Of a DNA stretch of 64,000 bases, positions 3,700 through 55,250 are shown piece after piece. The stretch lies in sequence record PP274704.1. One strand, given 5' to 3'. A program made the translations under genes and the position numbers. The DNA comes from Escherichia phage ECp13. Every line of letters starts with the position of its first letter. Position 1 is the first letter of the stretch. The notes beneath the pieces were generated by a model that ran no database searches, was not told where the DNA came from, and worked only from the letters and a program-made list of their open reading frames with translations.

Positions 3700-4146
3700 A
3701 TGATTACAGTAGATAAGTGGTTTAGAATTAATCGTGCTGATAAAGGGCTGTGTAATTATTGGCCGGAACTTAGTGCAGGTACTGTCTTTAAAGTTCGTGA
3801 ACTTGCAAAAGAATGCGAAGATGATATAGAACCTGATACTGGAATTATTGAAATTGAACTTTCTGATGGAAAGATTATTAACATCTATGATAAGCCAATT
3901 ACGTATTGGTGCTTGTGGAATACTGAATCAGTAGAAAATGGCGAAATTGAAGAGGTCGTAGAACGAGTTGATCAAGTTATTCATAAACCTGAAGCCGCTT
4001 TTCAAGGTGAACGCATTTCATATGCATTAGCTAAATTAGCTGCACAAGAAAATAACGATGGTTATGAAGGAAATTTAATGCAAGCTGCGGCAGAATATAT
4101 TGAATGGCTTGAAACTCAAAATTCTTTTTCTGACCGAGCGTTTTAA
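3700..4146 (+). CDS. hypothetical protein, 148 aa
   Basis: first ATG (3700) of track ORF that begins at a TTG; GGAG 8 nt upstream. Confidence 0.5.
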   Translation: MITVDKWFRINRADKGLCNYWPELSAGTVFKVRELAKECEDDIEPDTGIIEIELSDGKIINIYDKPITYWCLWNTESVENGEIEEVVERVDQVIHKPEAAFQGERISYALAKLAAQENNDGYEGNLMQAAAEYIEWLETQNSFSDRAF

Positions 4147-4157
4147 TACTTGAAAAT

Positions 4158-4165
4158 AATAAATA
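4158..4165 (+). promoter_or_regulatory. possible late-promoter variant AATAAATA upstream of gene 49
   Basis: 7/8 match to TATAAATA; a start just downstream would fall inside the 4165-4189 hairpin. Confidence 0.3.
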
Positions 4166-4195
4166 CCCTTATCTATTCAAGGTAAGGGTTTTATT
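4165..4195 (+). promoter_or_regulatory. hairpin immediately upstream of gene 49 start, sequestering the SD-like AAGGG
   Basis: perfect 7-bp inverted repeat ACCCTTA/TAAGGGT, 11-nt loop, then TTTATT and ATG 4196; consistent with the T4 gene 49 hairpin-masked initiation described in the literature. Confidence 0.5.
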
Positions 4196-4669
4196 ATGTT
4201 ATTGACTGGCAAATTATACAAAGAAGAAAAACAAAAATTTTATAATGCACAAAATGGTAAATGCTTAATTTGCCAACGAGAACTAAATCCTGATGTTCAA
4301 GCTAATCACCTTGACCATGACCATGAATTAAATGGACCAAAAGCAGGAAAGGTACGTGGATTGCTCTGTAATCTTTGCAATGCAGCGGAAGGTCAAATGA
4401 AGCATAAATTTAATCGTTCTGGCTTAAAGGGACAAGGTGTTGATTATCTTGAATGGTTAGAAAATTTACTTACTTATTTAAAATCCGATTACACCCAAAA
4501 TAATATTCACCCTAACTTCGTTGGAGATAAATCAAAGGAATTTTCTCGTTTAGGAAAAGAGGAAATGATGGCTGAGATGCTTCAAAGAGGATTTGAATAT
4601 AATGAATCTGACACCAAAACACAATTAATAGCTTCATTTAAGAAGCAGCTTAGAAAGAGTTTAAAATGA
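4196..4669 (+). CDS. 49: recombination endonuclease VII (Holliday junction resolvase)
   Basis: 157 aa, Cys-rich zinc motif and HxxDHDH-like segment, matches recalled T4 gp49. Confidence 0.9.
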   Translation: MLLTGKLYKEEKQKFYNAQNGKCLICQRELNPDVQANHLDHDHELNGPKAGKVRGLLCNLCNAAEGQMKHKFNRSGLKGQGVDYLEWLENLLTYLKSDYTQNNIHPNFVGDKSKEFSRLGKEEMMAEMLQRGFEYNESDTKTQLIASFKKQLRKSLK

Positions 4670-28604: not shown

Positions 28605-29633
28605 ATGTCATCAATACCTTGGATTGATAATGAGTTTGCATACCGTGCATTAGCTCATTTACCTAAATTCACACAAGTAAATAATAGTTCAACTTTTAAA
28701 TTGCGGTTTAGATGCCCTGTTTGTGGAGATTCAAAAACCGACCAAAATAAAGCCCGTGGATGGTATTATGGTGATAATAATGAAGGAAATATTCATTGTT
28801 ATAACTGCAACTATCATGCACCAATCGGAATATATTTAAAGGAGTTTGAACCTGATTTATATCGTGAGTATATCTTTGAAATAAGAAAAGAAAAAGGTAA
28901 AAGTCGTCCAGTAGAAAAACCTAAAGAACTTCCTAAACAACCTGAGAAGAAAATAATTAAATCTCTTCCGTCATGCATTAGATTAGATAAACTGGCGGAA
29001 GACCATCCAATTATAAAATATGTAAAAGCTCGTTGTATTCCAAAGAATAAATGGAAATATCTTTGGTTTACAACCGAATGGCCTAAATTAGTTAATAGTA
29101 TAGCGCCAGGAACATATAAAAAGGAAATACCTGAGCCTCGTCTTGTTATTCCAATTTATAATGCTAACGGAAAAGCTGAGTCTTTTCAAGGACGTGCATT
29201 AAAGAAAGATGCTCCTCAAAAATATATCACCATCAAAGCTTATCCTGAGGCAACAAAAATTTATGGAGTTGAACGGGTTAAAGATGGTGATGTATATGTT
29301 CTAGAAGGACCTATAGATTCACTTTTTATTGAAAATGGTATAGCTATTACGGGCGGTCAATTAGACCTAGAAATTGTTCCATTTAAAGATAGACGTGTAT
29401 GGGTTTTAGATAATGAACCTCGTCATCCTGACACTATTAAACGAATGACTAAATTGGTCGATGCAGGAGAAAGGGTTATGTTTTGGGACAAATCTCCCTG
29501 GAAATCAAAAGATGTTAATGATATGATTAGAAAGGAAGGTGCAACCCCTAAACAAATTATGGAATATATGAAAAATAATATTGCCCAAGGGTTGATGGCT
29601 AAAATGCGGCTATCTAAATATGCTAAGATTTAA
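28605..29633 (+). CDS. 61: DNA primase gp61
   Basis: 342 aa; N-terminal Cys4 zinc ribbon CPVCGDS...CYNC; TOPRIM-like core. Confidence 0.9.
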   Translation: MSSIPWIDNEFAYRALAHLPKFTQVNNSSTFKLRFRCPVCGDSKTDQNKARGWYYGDNNEGNIHCYNCNYHAPIGIYLKEFEPDLYREYIFEIRKEKGKSRPVEKPKELPKQPEKKIIKSLPSCIRLDKLAEDHPIIKYVKARCIPKNKWKYLWFTTEWPKLVNSIAPGTYKKEIPEPRLVIPIYNANGKAESFQGRALKKDAPQKYITIKAYPEATKIYGVERVKDGDVYVLEGPIDSLFIENGIAITGGQLDLEIVPFKDRRVWVLDNEPRHPDTIKRMTKLVDAGERVMFWDKSPWKSKDVNDMIRKEGATPKQIMEYMKNNIAQGLMAKMRLSKYAKI

Positions 29634-29830
29634 ATTAACCCAACTAAAGCAAATGCTAAATCTACGAATGTATCAAGAGTAATTACTGGAATATTAACGC
29701 CATGAGCAATAGCAATTGGCGATAAAACAAAATTCCAGAGTAAAATTCCTACCATAGCAGAAATAGTAAAAGCTATACGTTTTTTATTACCTTTTATGGC
29801 ATTAACAAGTGCCATTAATTTTTGTACCAT
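29630..29830 (-). CDS. small membrane protein, 66 aa, antisense to flanking genes
   Basis: minus-strand ORF with AGGAGG 4 nt before ATG; two hydrophobic segments; stop overlaps gene 61 stop. Confidence 0.4.
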   Translation of the reverse strand: MVQKLMALVNAIKGNKKRIAFTISAMVGILLWNFVLSPIAIAHGVNIPVITLDTFVDLAFALVGLI

Positions 29831-29843
29831 ATGTCCTCCTTAT

Positions 29844-29867
29844 TGCTTTATATATTTATTGTATAAT
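29844..29867 (+). promoter_or_regulatory. putative middle promoter for gene 56 (MotA box TTGCTTTA + TATAAT)
   Basis: TTGCTTTA 29844-51, TATAAT 29862-67. Confidence 0.4.
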
Positions 29868-29901
29868 TAATCTACTAACCCATGAATTGAAAGGAAAAAT
29901 A

Positions 29902-30419
29902 ATGGCTTACTTTAATGAATGTAGTCAACTGATTGAAGGCGCTGATAAAGCTCAAAATGAATACTGGGATATTCTCGGCGATGAAAAAGACCCGCTGCAG
30001 GTTATGCTTGATATGCAGAAATCTCTGCAGGTTCGTTTAGCTAAAGATAAACCTGAATATAACCGTCATCCTGATGATTTGGCTACTGCAGGTGAAGTTG
30101 TTGATTGGCTGCGTAATCAGAAAGATTATATTGATGATGAATTCCGCGAACTTCTGACTTCTCTTGGTGGTATGAGCAATGGCGAAAAAGATGCATCTGC
30201 TGTATGGAAGCTTGGAAGTCGCAACACGGTGAACGTCGTGAAACTCTGATTACTGACTTATCTCCACAAGACCAGTTGGAAATTAAATTCGAAATGATTG
30301 ATATTCTTCATTTCGTTCTGAACATGTTCCAAGGTCTCGGTCTTACGGCTGAAGAAATCTTTAAACTTTATTATCTGAAAAATGCTGAAAACTTCGCTCG
30401 TCAAGACCGAGGTTATTAA
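29902..30419 (+). pseudogene. 56: dCTPase (dCTP pyrophosphatase, MazG-like) gp56 interrupted by an apparent 1-nt deletion
   Basis: N-terminal 116 codons in one frame (stop 30247-49), C-terminal conserved part in -1 frame from ~30204; joint length ~171 aa as in T4 gp56. Confidence 0.65.
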
Positions 30420-30453: not shown

Positions 30454-30461
30454 TATAAATA
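30454..30461 (+). promoter_or_regulatory. late promoter TATAAATA for soc
   Basis: exact TATAAATA about 30 nt upstream of soc ATG. Confidence 0.7.
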
Positions 30462-54563: not shown

Positions 54564-55220
54564 TTATTTAGCCCTTCCTAATATTCTGGCCGCCTGAGCA
54601 CATATTGATTCAAGGCGGTCATTACTTATATGATCATTTCTATACCAGTACATGGTTATTGTTCCAGCATAGATATTATCCAAATTGAAATATGGACAAC
54701 TGTACATGTAATTTATTTCGGGAGTAGGCTTTTTAGTCGGTAAAAAAGCAAATTTTGAGTTGGAATAATAATGACGTCCATTTAAATGAACTGCATATTC
54801 ATCCATAGTTTTATCAACAGGATATCCTCCAAGTGATTTTTCACTTATTGTTGAAGGTAATTTTCCTTCATATGCTATAATATCAACAAAATAGTTTAAG
54901 TTTTTAGGGCGGAAAGAATACACCGCACTAAAGTCTGCCTCAGATGATATATGAACTATCTGGAGTTGTTCCAGGGCGACAGATTCAAAGCGTGCATTTC
55001 TTTCCTTTTCAATAATTTCACTGTATGTTTCATACTTTGATTGCTTATAGTACTCAAAGAAACTATCTCCCCTATACCAAACAATCGCCATTATAAACAA
55101 AAGAATTACGACAGCTACCCGGGAAGCAAGAACTTTCCCGGTAGCGTTATCTTTGAACAAGCGATCTAGAACACCAAACAGAACATCAGAGGGCGAAAAT
55201 GATATTCTAGGTGCTGCCAT
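54564..55220 (-). CDS. t: holin T
   Basis: 218 aa; one TM segment near N-terminus; matches recalled T4 holin t. Confidence 0.9.
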   Translation of the reverse strand: MAAPRISFSPSDVLFGVLDRLFKDNATGKVLASRVAVVILLFIMAIVWYRGDSFFEYYKQSKYETYSEIIEKERNARFESVALEQLQIVHISSEADFSAVYSFRPKNLNYFVDIIAYEGKLPSTISEKSLGGYPVDKTMDEYAVHLNGRHYYSNSKFAFLPTKKPTPEINYMYSCPYFNLDNIYAGTITMYWYRNDHISNDRLESICAQAARILGRAK

Positions 55221-55250
55221 AGACCCTCCTTTTAAGGATATTTATTCAAA

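What the first reader, a model, noticed from the sequence alone, without database searches (positions are those of the whole stretch)
29630..29830. Convergent minus-strand membrane ORF between primase gene 61 and gene 56
This 66-codon ORF runs opposite to all neighbouring early genes. It has a near-ideal AAGGAGG 4 nt before its ATG, an AT-rich upstream with an AATAAATA late-promoter-like box, and two hydrophobic segments; its stop overlaps the gene 61 stop tail-to-tail. From memory, T4 carries dam (and oriA) between 61 and 56; here the gap is only 268 bp and holds this ORF instead, but I cannot confirm the T4 arrangement without a search. It could be a late small membrane protein, or an antisense ORF arising by chance in AT-rich DNA.
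Basis: partly seen in the sequence, partly recalled or inferred. Interest (0 to 1): 0.5.

Follow-up and report, generated by a model that had tools for sequence, protein, structure and literature searches.

The report
Conserved late membrane gene beside primase
The small backwards-facing ORF after the primase gene is a real, conserved gene of T4-type phages that most likely makes a tiny inner-membrane protein late in infection; many genomes already list it as a hypothetical protein, the T4 and T2 reference records omit it, and its function is untested.

Summary
The 66-codon minus-strand ORF (29630-29830) is there exactly as described, and it is a real gene. Length alone proves nothing, because 28 comparable antisense ORFs lie in the early region. 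Three things set this one apart. It is intact in all 20 copies examined, from eight Tevenvirinae genera. Its substitutions follow a coding pattern (variable columns 35/13/49 by codon position, dN/dS about 0.1-0.3, synonymous sites saturated between genera). It matches phrog_2024 at E=5e-31, while eight control antisense ORFs match nothing. A strong Shine-Dalgarno sequence (SD) and a near-consensus T4 late-promoter box (AATAAATA here) lie 12-22 nt upstream of the ATG in every genus. In this window only soc and the holin gene t share that combination. The predicted product is a single-pass membrane protein, N-terminus inside, with invariant W-N...P...G...P residues. RB51 annotates the same ORF under the gene name RB32ORF030w. 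Function is unknown, and the occasional "holin" label is unsupported. My best guess is a late membrane protein that works by helix-helix association, with its transcript also reading antisense into gene 61. This is an ordinary but solid finding.

The parts
29630..29830 (-). CDS of the 66-aa small membrane protein (phrog_2024; RB32ORF030w/RB69ORF029w family), stop codon included
   Evidence: ORF; homologues; phrog_2024 E=5e-31; coding-type substitution; the only frame open in all 20 copies
29835..29841 (-). Shine-Dalgarno AAGGAGG, 4 nt before the ATG
   Evidence: AGGAG(G) is conserved upstream of every orthologue; holin t in this window has the same SD and spacing
29853..29860 (-). T4 late-promoter-like box AATAAATA (A at -13 instead of T), 22 nt before the ATG; the implied start site near 29847 is inferred
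   Evidence: box conserved 12-22 nt upstream in eight genera and three unrelated upstream contexts; A(-13) is the commonest variant among listed T4 late promoters (PMC2988020; PMC1524935)
29796..29825 (+). Terminator-like hairpin ATGGCATT-AACA-AGTGCCAT plus TAATTTTTGT on the early strand, lying inside codons ~2-12 of the ORF; a possible attenuator or terminator of transcripts leaving gene 61
   Evidence: 3 terminator-like sites against 0.3 expected in the 801-bp scan 29300-30100; this hairpin is one of them; present in all Tequatrovirus copies, absent in Mosigvirus; fPS-2 record annotates a terminator at the equivalent place
29844..29867 (+). Middle-promoter-like element for gene 56: MotA-box-like TGCTTTA (29844-29850), 11-nt spacer, TATAAT (29862-29867); its spacer contains the complement of the late box
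   Evidence: sequence read directly; match to the T4 middle-promoter consensus is from my own knowledge; fPS-2 record annotates a 'predicted middle promoter' at the equivalent place
28605..29633 (+). Gene 61 (DNA primase), convergent with the ORF; the two stop codons overlap
29902..30419 (+). Gene 56 (dCTPase), downstream neighbour; split here by a 1-nt deletion near 30210

Best explanation
The ORF is a genuine protein-coding gene, conserved in position across the phage subfamily Tevenvirinae and always convergent with the primase gene 61. SHOWN: it is under purifying selection as a protein, and it is the only reading frame in the region that stays open in all genera. INFERRED from sequence: it has its own promoter, a one-mismatch variant of the T4 late promoter (AATAAATA, A at -13). 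The gp55-RNA polymerase would use this late in infection, giving a leader of about 17 nt with a strong SD. INFERRED: the product inserts into the inner membrane as a single-pass protein. The lysine/arginine-rich N-terminus (net +1 to +5 across the family) would be cytoplasmic. One helix of about 26 residues, rich in Ala/Gly/Ser, spans the membrane. The roughly 22-residue, mildly acidic C-terminal tail (a short helix) would lie at the periplasmic face. SPECULATIVE: the invariant Trp-Asn in mid-membrane, together with the Pro, a nearly invariant Ala and the invariant Gly (N33/A40/G44 lie on one helical face, an AxxxG-type packing motif), suggests that the protein acts by helix-helix association. 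The partner could be itself or another membrane protein, in a late envelope-related process such as lysis timing. No terminator separates the ORF from gene 61, so the late transcript must also read antisense into the primase gene. This could be a secondary, RNA-level effect.
For: Conservation: tblastn finds the ORF in 692 phage records, 686 of them over >=80% of its length. 502 records have it at >=80% identity, the same number as have gp61 at >=80% identity. A broadened profile finds 119 protein clusters of 41-73 aa; truncated fragments aside, they are 62-69 aa, and every cluster with a long contig comes from a genome-sized (~160-175 kb) T4-like phage sequence. Coding signature: 13 distinct nucleotide versions among 14 copies give 35/13/49 variable columns at codon positions 1/2/3. 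dN/dS is 0.08-0.30 within genera. Between Tequatrovirus and Mosigvirus pS is ~0.76-0.79 (saturated) against pN ~0.32. The ORF frame has 0 stops in all 20 copies. The only other partly open frame is gene 61's frame continued past its stop; it has no start codon, a TGA in this very window, and 1-3 stops in five other genera. Synteny: the ORF is convergent with gene 61 in Tequatro-, Mosig-, Moon-, Dhaka-, Jiaoda-, Gelderland- and Gaprivervirus loci, with overlapping stops in six of these seven and an 18-nt gap in Jiaodavirus. Its upstream side meanwhile accepts dam, homing endonucleases or MazG-like genes. A Karamvirus-like phage, ZX14, was matched by tblastn only. Expression signals: a NATAAATA or ATTAAATA box lies 12-22 nt before the ATG and an AGGAG(G) SD is present in every genus, and these are the only conserved blocks upstream. 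In this window only soc, t and this ORF combine the two. The holin gene t uses the identical AATAAATA...AAGGAGG-4 nt-ATG layout. These 8-mers are 3- to 5-fold depleted in the window. The literature accepts A(-13) variants as late promoters and late transcripts of either polarity (PMC2988020; PMC1524935). Protein: AlphaFold2 (AF2) mean pLDDT 77 with helices 2-12, 16-42 and 52-63. Hydropathy and charge asymmetry are, invariant W32 N33 P38 G44 P48. Controls: eight other long antisense ORFs have no PHROG match.
Against: I could find no expression data for this ORF (RNA 5' end, Ribo-seq or mass spectrometry), and no paper mentions it. The late box is never the perfect TATAAATA in any genus, and the in-vivo strength of variant boxes is not established (PMC2988020). 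Topology rests on hydropathy, charge bias and an AF2 monomer model only, and the TM segment is only moderately hydrophobic (best 15-residue Kyte-Doolittle mean 1.5-2.4). The functional step (helix association, an envelope or lysis role) has no direct support. The gene sits nowhere near lysis genes and has been lost in at least one Karamvirus, so it is dispensable in some lineages.
Confidence: 0.7

Rival explanations
1. It is a chance antisense ORF in AT-rich DNA with no product.
For: ORFs of this size are common on the antisense strand of this window: 28 of >=60 aa in the early region.
Against: It is intact at constant length in all 20 copies from eight genera, although synonymous sites are saturated. 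It shows a coding-type substitution pattern, a full-length PHROG match while eight control ORFs have none, and conserved SD and promoter boxes.
Confidence: 0.02
2. The region is conserved because of signals on the early (+) strand, and the minus-strand ORF is only their shadow. Those signals would be a terminator after gene 61, the middle promoter of gene 56, or a read-through extension of gene 61.
For: A terminator-like hairpin with a T-run lies inside the ORF's 5' end on the + strand in all Tequatrovirus copies. A middle-promoter-like element lies just upstream of gene 56 (fPS-2 annotation). The frame of gene 61 stays open past its stop through the whole ORF in T4, T2, RB51 and Mosigvirus.
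Against: The hairpin is absent in Mosigvirus, where the ORF is still conserved. The + strand frame has a TGA in this window and two relatives and 1-3 stops in five other genera, and it has no start codon. Regulatory DNA does not give position-2-poor, position-3-rich variation across 200 bp or residue-specific protein conservation. These + strand signals most likely coexist with the gene.
Confidence: 0.03
3. It is a holin (or pinholin-like second hole-former), as a few database records label it.
For: It is small, has one TM helix and is probably late. It shares the promoter and SD layout of holin t. It is labelled 'Holin' in UniProt for phage OE5505 and 'putative holin' in KP1079.
Against: No member matches any Pfam holin family at E<=10. 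The C-terminus is hydrophobic rather than the charged tail typical of holins. The gene lies between replication genes, not next to e, t or the spanin genes. These phages already have holin T (54564-55220 in this window). From my own knowledge, T4 t-null mutants do not lyse, so no second holin substitutes. The labels carry no evidence.
Confidence: 0.08
4. The main function is at the RNA level: late convergent transcription from this promoter produces antisense RNA across the 3' part of gene 61 and shuts down primase expression late. The peptide would be secondary.
For: No terminator-like site was found on the minus strand in the 2.3 kb downstream of the ORF. The stop-to-stop overlap with gene 61 is kept in six of the seven genera whose loci were examined. 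T4 is known to transcribe both strands at several sites at different times (PMC2988020).
Against: An antisense role needs the promoter but not a conserved protein. Here the amino-acid sequence, the length and a strong SD are all under selection. In Jiaodavirus a hairpin separates the ORF from gene 61. An antisense effect may well exist alongside the protein.
Confidence: 0.1

Closest known systems
RB32ORF030w / RB69ORF029w hypothetical proteins (phrog_2024), annotated in RB51 (under the gene name RB32ORF030w), mogra, VR5, Merlin, S16-like phages and hundreds of other T4-like genomes
   Same: It is the same family: full-length HMM match at E=5e-31, copies 100% identical in deposited genomes, and the same position convergent with gene 61.
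   Different: Nothing differs; the window's ORF is an ordinary member. The family has no assigned function, and it is missing from the T4 (NC_000866) and T2 (NC_054931) reference annotations.
T4 holin gene t (expression signals only)
   Same: In this window both genes have AATAAATA, then 7-11 nt, AAGGAGG, 4 nt and ATG, on the late (minus) strand. Both encode N-in single-pass membrane proteins (the topology of T is from my own knowledge).
   Different: T is 218 aa with a large periplasmic domain and lies in the late tail-fibre/lysis region. The ORF is 66 aa, shares no sequence similarity with T, and is embedded among early replication genes.
T4 soc: a late gene embedded in an early-gene region
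   Same: soc lies two genes away. It has its own late promoter (TATAAATA at 30454-30461) and a strong SD inside a block of early and middle genes.
   Different: soc is co-oriented with the early genes and encodes a soluble capsid decoration protein with a perfect late box. The ORF is in the opposite orientation, encodes a membrane protein and has a variant box.
T4 antiholin RI, N-terminal signal-anchor-release (SAR) domain
   Same: The two hydrophobic segments share weak local similarity (8/20 identities including FVLSP; pairwise E=0.009). Both are rich in Ala/Gly/Ser, which is the compositional hallmark of SAR domains.
   Different: The ORF has no RI-like periplasmic globular domain, only about 22 residues after the helix. 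The FVLSP match is confined to Tequatrovirus copies, and similarity between hydrophobic segments is expected by chance. This is not evidence of homology.

Membership tests
phrog_2024 (RB32ORF030w/RB69ORF029w family) | Full-length match to the family HMM | tested here: met
   E=5.4e-31, residues 2-66 against profile positions 1-65 of 65; all 11 divergent members tested match the same PHROG
phrog_2024 (RB32ORF030w/RB69ORF029w family) | Position: convergent with and abutting the 3' end of primase gene 61 | tested here: met
   Window and loci from seven genera; an eighth genus, Karamvirus (ZX14), rests on a tblastn hit only
phrog_2024 (RB32ORF030w/RB69ORF029w family) | Length 62-69 aa with invariant W-N...P...G...P core | tested here: met
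T4 late (gp55/gp33/gp45-dependent) genes | TATAAATA box at -13 to -6 relative to the start site | tested here: inconclusive
   7 of 8 match (AATAAATA) at a suitable distance from the SD and ATG. A(-13) is the commonest variant, at 9 of 50 listed T4 late promoters. The box is conserved across genera. No start site has been mapped.
T4 late (gp55/gp33/gp45-dependent) genes | Late RNA 5' end that depends on genes 55/33 and on replication | not testable with these tools
   No transcript data accessible; no paper found
Holins | Small protein with at least one transmembrane helix | tested here: met
   Helix 16-42 in the AF2 model; hydropathy
Holins | Hydrophilic, highly charged C-terminal tail | tested here: not met
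   The C-terminus is ...FVDLAFALVGLI, hydrophobic, with net charge -2 to 0 across the family
Holins | Match to a described holin family, or location in a lysis cassette next to the endolysin | tested here: not met
   No Pfam or NCBIfam hit at E<=10. The neighbours are primase and dCTPase; t lies ~25 kb away in the window.
Holins | Lethal hole formation that releases endolysin | not testable with these tools
   Needs experiment
SAR-type antiholin (RI-like) | N-terminal SAR domain followed by a periplasmic domain that binds holin T | tested here: not met
   Only a 20-residue hydrophobic similarity (E=0.009 pairwise), and no periplasmic domain (about 22 residues remain after the helix)
Intrinsic terminator of gene 61 (+ strand reading of the same DNA) | GC-containing stem-loop followed by a T-run, conserved among relatives | tested here: inconclusive
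   Present at 29796-29825 and in all Tequatrovirus copies, absent in Mosigvirus; activity untested

The most novel reading that the evidence does not exclude
T4 itself, the best-studied phage, carries an unannotated gene conserved across the Tevenvirinae. Its product would be a late 66-aa inner-membrane protein with an Asn-containing, SAR-like transmembrane helix. It would bind the single transmembrane helix of holin T or another membrane partner and tune lysis timing or lysis inhibition. Its read-through transcript would also silence the primase gene late in infection. Gaprivervirus carries two diverged tandem copies, which hints at partner-specific variants.
Probability: 0.12. Interest if true: 0.6.

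Novelty: already known. Interest (0 to 1): 0.3.

Why it matters
The finding mainly matters as an annotation point. A gene that has been kept for the whole history of the Tevenvirinae, and is annotated as 'hypothetical protein' in hundreds of relatives, is absent from the T4 and T2 reference records. Expression atlases, proteomics searches and genome-wide knock-down screens built on those records will therefore miss it. It also adds a candidate to the short list of late small membrane proteins of T-even phages. Those known so far (T, RI, the spanins) all act in lysis control. The locus is a compact example of DNA read on both strands: a coding sequence that doubles as a terminator hairpin for the opposite strand, and a late promoter nested in the spacer of an opposing middle promoter. 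None of this overturns current understanding.

Tried and rejected
1. Pfam and NCBIfam scans of the ORF and of 11 family members found nothing meaningful; single hits to COX7B (0.028) and SNARE (0.14) are noise.
2. A profile search of 1.84 billion representative proteins found only 7 hits, all family members or fragments, plus one spurious 1255-aa protein. The family is confined to T4-like phages, so no bacterial or prophage context is available to suggest a function.
3. A Foldseek search of the AF2 model against viral structures found only family members. Other hits had E>0.5 and were generic helical hairpins. I ran no further search on a 66-aa helical protein.
4. Eight completed literature searches, by ORF name, by possible T4-style gene names, and for T4 Ribo-seq, start-site mapping or unannotated genes, found no paper on this ORF. 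The T4 genome review (PMC150520) is not held.
5. The resemblance to the RI SAR domain, which I first recalled from memory, turned out on checking to be 8/20 identities between hydrophobic segments. I rejected it as evidence of homology.
6. I looked for the gene at another locus in Karamvirus, hoping for informative neighbours. Where present (ZX14) it is again next to the primase, and KaAlpha has lost it.
7. Outside the Tevenvirinae (Krischvirus, Slopekvirus, Pseudotevenvirus, Tulanevirus, an Acinetobacter phage) there is no counterpart at the locus. In the first three, gene 56 follows gene 61 within 4-15 nt.

Full report
WHAT IS THERE. The window is a Tequatrovirus (T4-like) genome segment. 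The 1.5 kb around the finding is 98.5% identical to Shigella phage Sfk20 and Escherichia phage EC121. Early and middle genes run on the + strand and late genes on the minus strand. Gene 61 (primase) occupies 28605-29633, and gene 56 (dCTPase) starts at 29902. In the 268-bp gap between them a 66-codon ORF runs on the minus strand, 29830 down to 29630. Its stop codon overlaps the gene 61 stop in the palindrome TTAA. AAGGAGG lies 4 nt before its ATG (29835-29841), and AATAAATA lies at 29853-29860, 22 nt before the ATG.

IS IT MORE THAN CHANCE? Length says nothing: the early-gene part of the window holds 28 minus-strand ATG-ORFs of at least 60 aa. What is unusual is the set of signals. Of the 139 ORFs of >=60 aa in the window, only three combine an AAGGAG(G) Shine-Dalgarno sequence with a NATAAATA box within 45 nt upstream. 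They are soc (a known late gene, perfect TATAAATA at 30454-30461), the holin gene t (54564-55220, annotated 'holin' in near-identical phages) and this ORF. These 8-mers are also scarce in the genome. TATAAATA occurs 3 times against 9.4 expected, and VATAAATA 6 times against 27.8. That fits selection against stray late promoters.

IT IS A REAL GENE. tblastn finds the ORF in 692 phage records, 686 of them over at least 80% of its length. 502 records carry it at >=80% identity, the same number as carry gp61 at >=80% identity. Mosigvirus copies are about 50% identical. I extracted 14 copies, 13 of them distinct at the nucleotide level, from Tequatrovirus and Mosigvirus. Variable alignment columns fall 35/13/49 on codon positions 1/2/3. 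Nei-Gojobori dN/dS is 0.08-0.30 within genera. Between the two genera synonymous sites are saturated (pS 0.76-0.79), while pN is 0.32 and length differs by one codon.

A six-frame control raised a complication. One frame on the opposite strand is also free of stops in T4, T2, RB51 and Mosigvirus, and its third codon positions coincide with those of the ORF. That frame is simply gene 61's frame continued past its stop. It has no start codon of its own. It carries a TGA in this very window and in two relatives, and 1-3 stops in Moon-, Dhaka-, Jiaoda-, Gelderland- and Gaprivervirus. The minus-strand ORF is intact in all 20 copies. The opposite-strand frame is therefore a shadow, not the gene.

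The ORF matches phrog_2024 (function unknown) over its full length at E=5e-31. Eight other long antisense ORFs from the same window match no PHROG.

SYNTENY AND DISTRIBUTION. A convergent ORF of 63-69 aa abuts gene 61 in RB51 (gene name RB32ORF030w, 'similar to RB69ORF029w'), mogra (Mosigvirus), Merlin (Moonvirus), VR5 (Dhakavirus), KP1079 (Jiaodavirus), UTK0003 (Gelderlandvirus) and TH15 (Gaprivervirus). A Karamvirus-like phage, ZX14, was matched by tblastn only. The stops overlap in all the examined loci except Jiaodavirus, where an 18-nt hairpin-containing spacer intervenes. All of these proteins belong to phrog_2024. A profile search of 5.8 billion proteins returns 119 clusters of 41-73 aa. 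Truncated fragments aside, lengths are 62-69 aa, and every cluster with a long contig comes from a phage genome of about 160-175 kb. A profile search of 1.84 billion representatives finds nothing outside the family.

The upstream side of the gene is plastic. T4 and T2 have dam there (T2 has a further ORF as well), fPS-2, VR5 and KP1079 have homing endonucleases, and Merlin has a MazG-like ORF. The junction with gene 61 never changes. TH15 has two diverged copies in tandem, 8 nt apart, behind a single CATAAATA box. The gene is absent from the Karamvirus KaAlpha. It is also absent from Krisch-, Slopek- and Pseudotevenvirus, where gene 56 follows gene 61 within 4-15 nt, and from Aeromonas and Acinetobacter relatives. 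It is therefore specific to the Tevenvirinae and occasionally lost.

THE T4 QUESTION. However, T4 also has this ORF, at NC_000866 17738-17938 on the + strand, in the 309-bp stretch between dam and 61 that the reference record leaves unannotated. T2 is the same. The ORF does not stand in for dam. dam is an insertion between the ORF's promoter and gene 56.

HOW IT IS PROBABLY EXPRESSED (inferred). There is no minus-strand gene upstream to read through from, so the ORF needs its own promoter. A near-consensus late box precedes the ATG in every genus:
- AATAAATA in the window type, Mosigvirus and Dhakavirus, 21-22 nt upstream
- GATAAATA in T4 and T2, 21 nt
- CATAAATA in Jiaoda- and Gaprivervirus, 12-16 nt
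- ATTAAATA in Moon- and Gelderlandvirus, 14-15 nt
Together with AGGAG(G), this box is the only conserved block in otherwise unrelated upstream sequence. Geiduschek and Kassavetis list 50 T4 late-promoter sites. Of these, 32 are perfect, nine have A at -13, and most of the rest have another single deviation. They note that variants are used in vitro and that several are linked to in-vivo 5' ends, and that late transcripts can have either polarity (PMC2988020). Nolan et al. found that the T at -13 is poorly conserved in T4-like phages (PMC1524935). In this window the undisputed late gene t has the same AATAAATA...AAGGAGG-4 nt-ATG layout. Applying the -13 to -6 rule places the start near 29847 and gives a 17-nt leader. 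This step is inference; I found no transcript or proteomic data.

WHAT THE PRODUCT LOOKS LIKE (inferred). AlphaFold2, run on a shallow 7-sequence alignment, gives mean pLDDT 77 with helices at 2-12, 16-42 and 52-63. Across the family the N-terminal ~17-23 residues carry net charge +1 to +5. The central 26 residues are hydrophobic but rich in Ala, Gly, Ser and Thr. The last ~22 residues carry net charge -2 to 0. By the positive-inside rule this is a single-pass protein, N-in and C-out, whose short C-terminal helix lies at the periplasmic face. That second hydrophobic stretch is too short, and contains two Asp, so it is unlikely to be a second span. W32, N33, P38, G44 and P48 are invariant, and A40 and G64 nearly so. 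An invariant Asn in mid-membrane plus an AxxxG motif on the same helical face (positions 33/40/44) is the kind of surface that drives helix-helix association. This last point draws on established knowledge of membrane-protein packing and is my inference.

WHAT ELSE THE SAME DNA DOES. On the + strand, a terminator-like hairpin with a T-run (29796-29825) sits inside codons ~2-12 of the ORF. It is present in all Tequatrovirus copies but not in Mosigvirus, so it cannot explain conservation of the ORF, though it may attenuate transcripts leaving gene 61. Just beyond the ORF's start, TGCTTTA-11 nt-TATAAT (29844-29867) looks like the MotA-dependent middle promoter of gene 56 (consensus from my own knowledge). 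The fPS-2 record annotates a terminator and a middle promoter at the equivalent places. The complement of the late box lies in that promoter's spacer. No terminator-like site was found on the minus strand in the 2.3 kb downstream of the ORF. A late transcript would therefore read antisense into gene 61. That may be a secondary effect on primase expression, but it does not account for selection on the protein.

FUNCTION. The function is unknown. Two records call the protein a holin, but nothing supports this. It matches no holin family, it has a hydrophobic rather than charged C-terminus, it lies among replication genes, and holin T is present in the same genome. A resemblance to the SAR domain of antiholin RI amounts to 8/20 identities between hydrophobic segments, which is not evidence of homology. 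My committed guess, at low confidence, is a late inner-membrane protein that acts through helix-helix association in an envelope-related late process such as lysis timing.

VERDICT. The 'chance ORF' reading and the 'instead of dam' idea are rejected. Databases already list the object as a conserved hypothetical protein (phrog_2024). The modest news is that the T4 and T2 reference annotations lack it and that nobody appears to have studied it.

Noticed in passing
window 29902-30419 (deletion near 30210-30211): Gene 56 (dCTPase), essential in hydroxymethylcytosine-containing T-even phages, is split into two ORFs (29902-30249 and 30204-30419). The cause is a 1-nt deletion relative to RB51 (GGAAG-CTTGG against GGAAGCCTTGG). 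It is either a sequencing error or a genuine frameshift.
   Followed up: partly
L024 (Escherichia virus TH15, Gaprivervirus) 4001-4198 and 4207-4407: Two diverged tandem paralogues of the small membrane protein, one of the Tequatro/Mosig type and one of the Dhakavirus type, lie 8 nt apart behind a single CATAAATA box. The second overlaps the gene 61 stop.
   Followed up: partly
window 29796-29825 (+) and 29844-29867 (+): A terminator-like hairpin for the early strand is embedded in the ORF's first codons. A MotA-box-like middle promoter for gene 56 has, in its spacer, the complement of the ORF's late box. This is a compact stretch of DNA used on both strands.
   Followed up: partly
window 29634-29830 (+), frame of gene 61: The gene 61 reading frame stays open for 65 codons past its stop in T4, T2, RB51 and Mosigvirus. 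It is a 'shadow' of the antisense gene whose third codon positions coincide with the ORF's. It is closed by a TGA in this window.
   Followed up: yes
window 4158-4165 (+), 55239-55246 (-): Besides the ORF's own box, two of the other four AATAAATA boxes in the window sit upstream of known genes. One is 30 nt before the endonuclease VII-like gene 49 ORF (MLLTGKLYKEEKQKF...) and one is 18 nt before holin t. The A(-13) variant therefore looks like a working late promoter in this genome.
   Followed up: partly
NC_000866 17626-17934 (L005 2627-2935); NC_054931 16552-16838: The T4 and T2 reference records leave the interval between gene 61 and its upstream neighbour (dam in T4, T2_032 in T2) unannotated, although it holds an intact copy of this conserved gene with SD and GATAAATA box.
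   Followed up: yes
L018 (Klebsiella phage KaAlpha, Karamvirus) 2229-2513: In this Karamvirus the convergent gene is missing. A co-directional 94-aa ORF overlaps the gene 61 stop instead; it resembles (by eye, untested) the MazG-like ORF beside gene 56 in Merlin. Another Karamvirus-like phage (ZX14) keeps the membrane-protein gene.
   Followed up: partly
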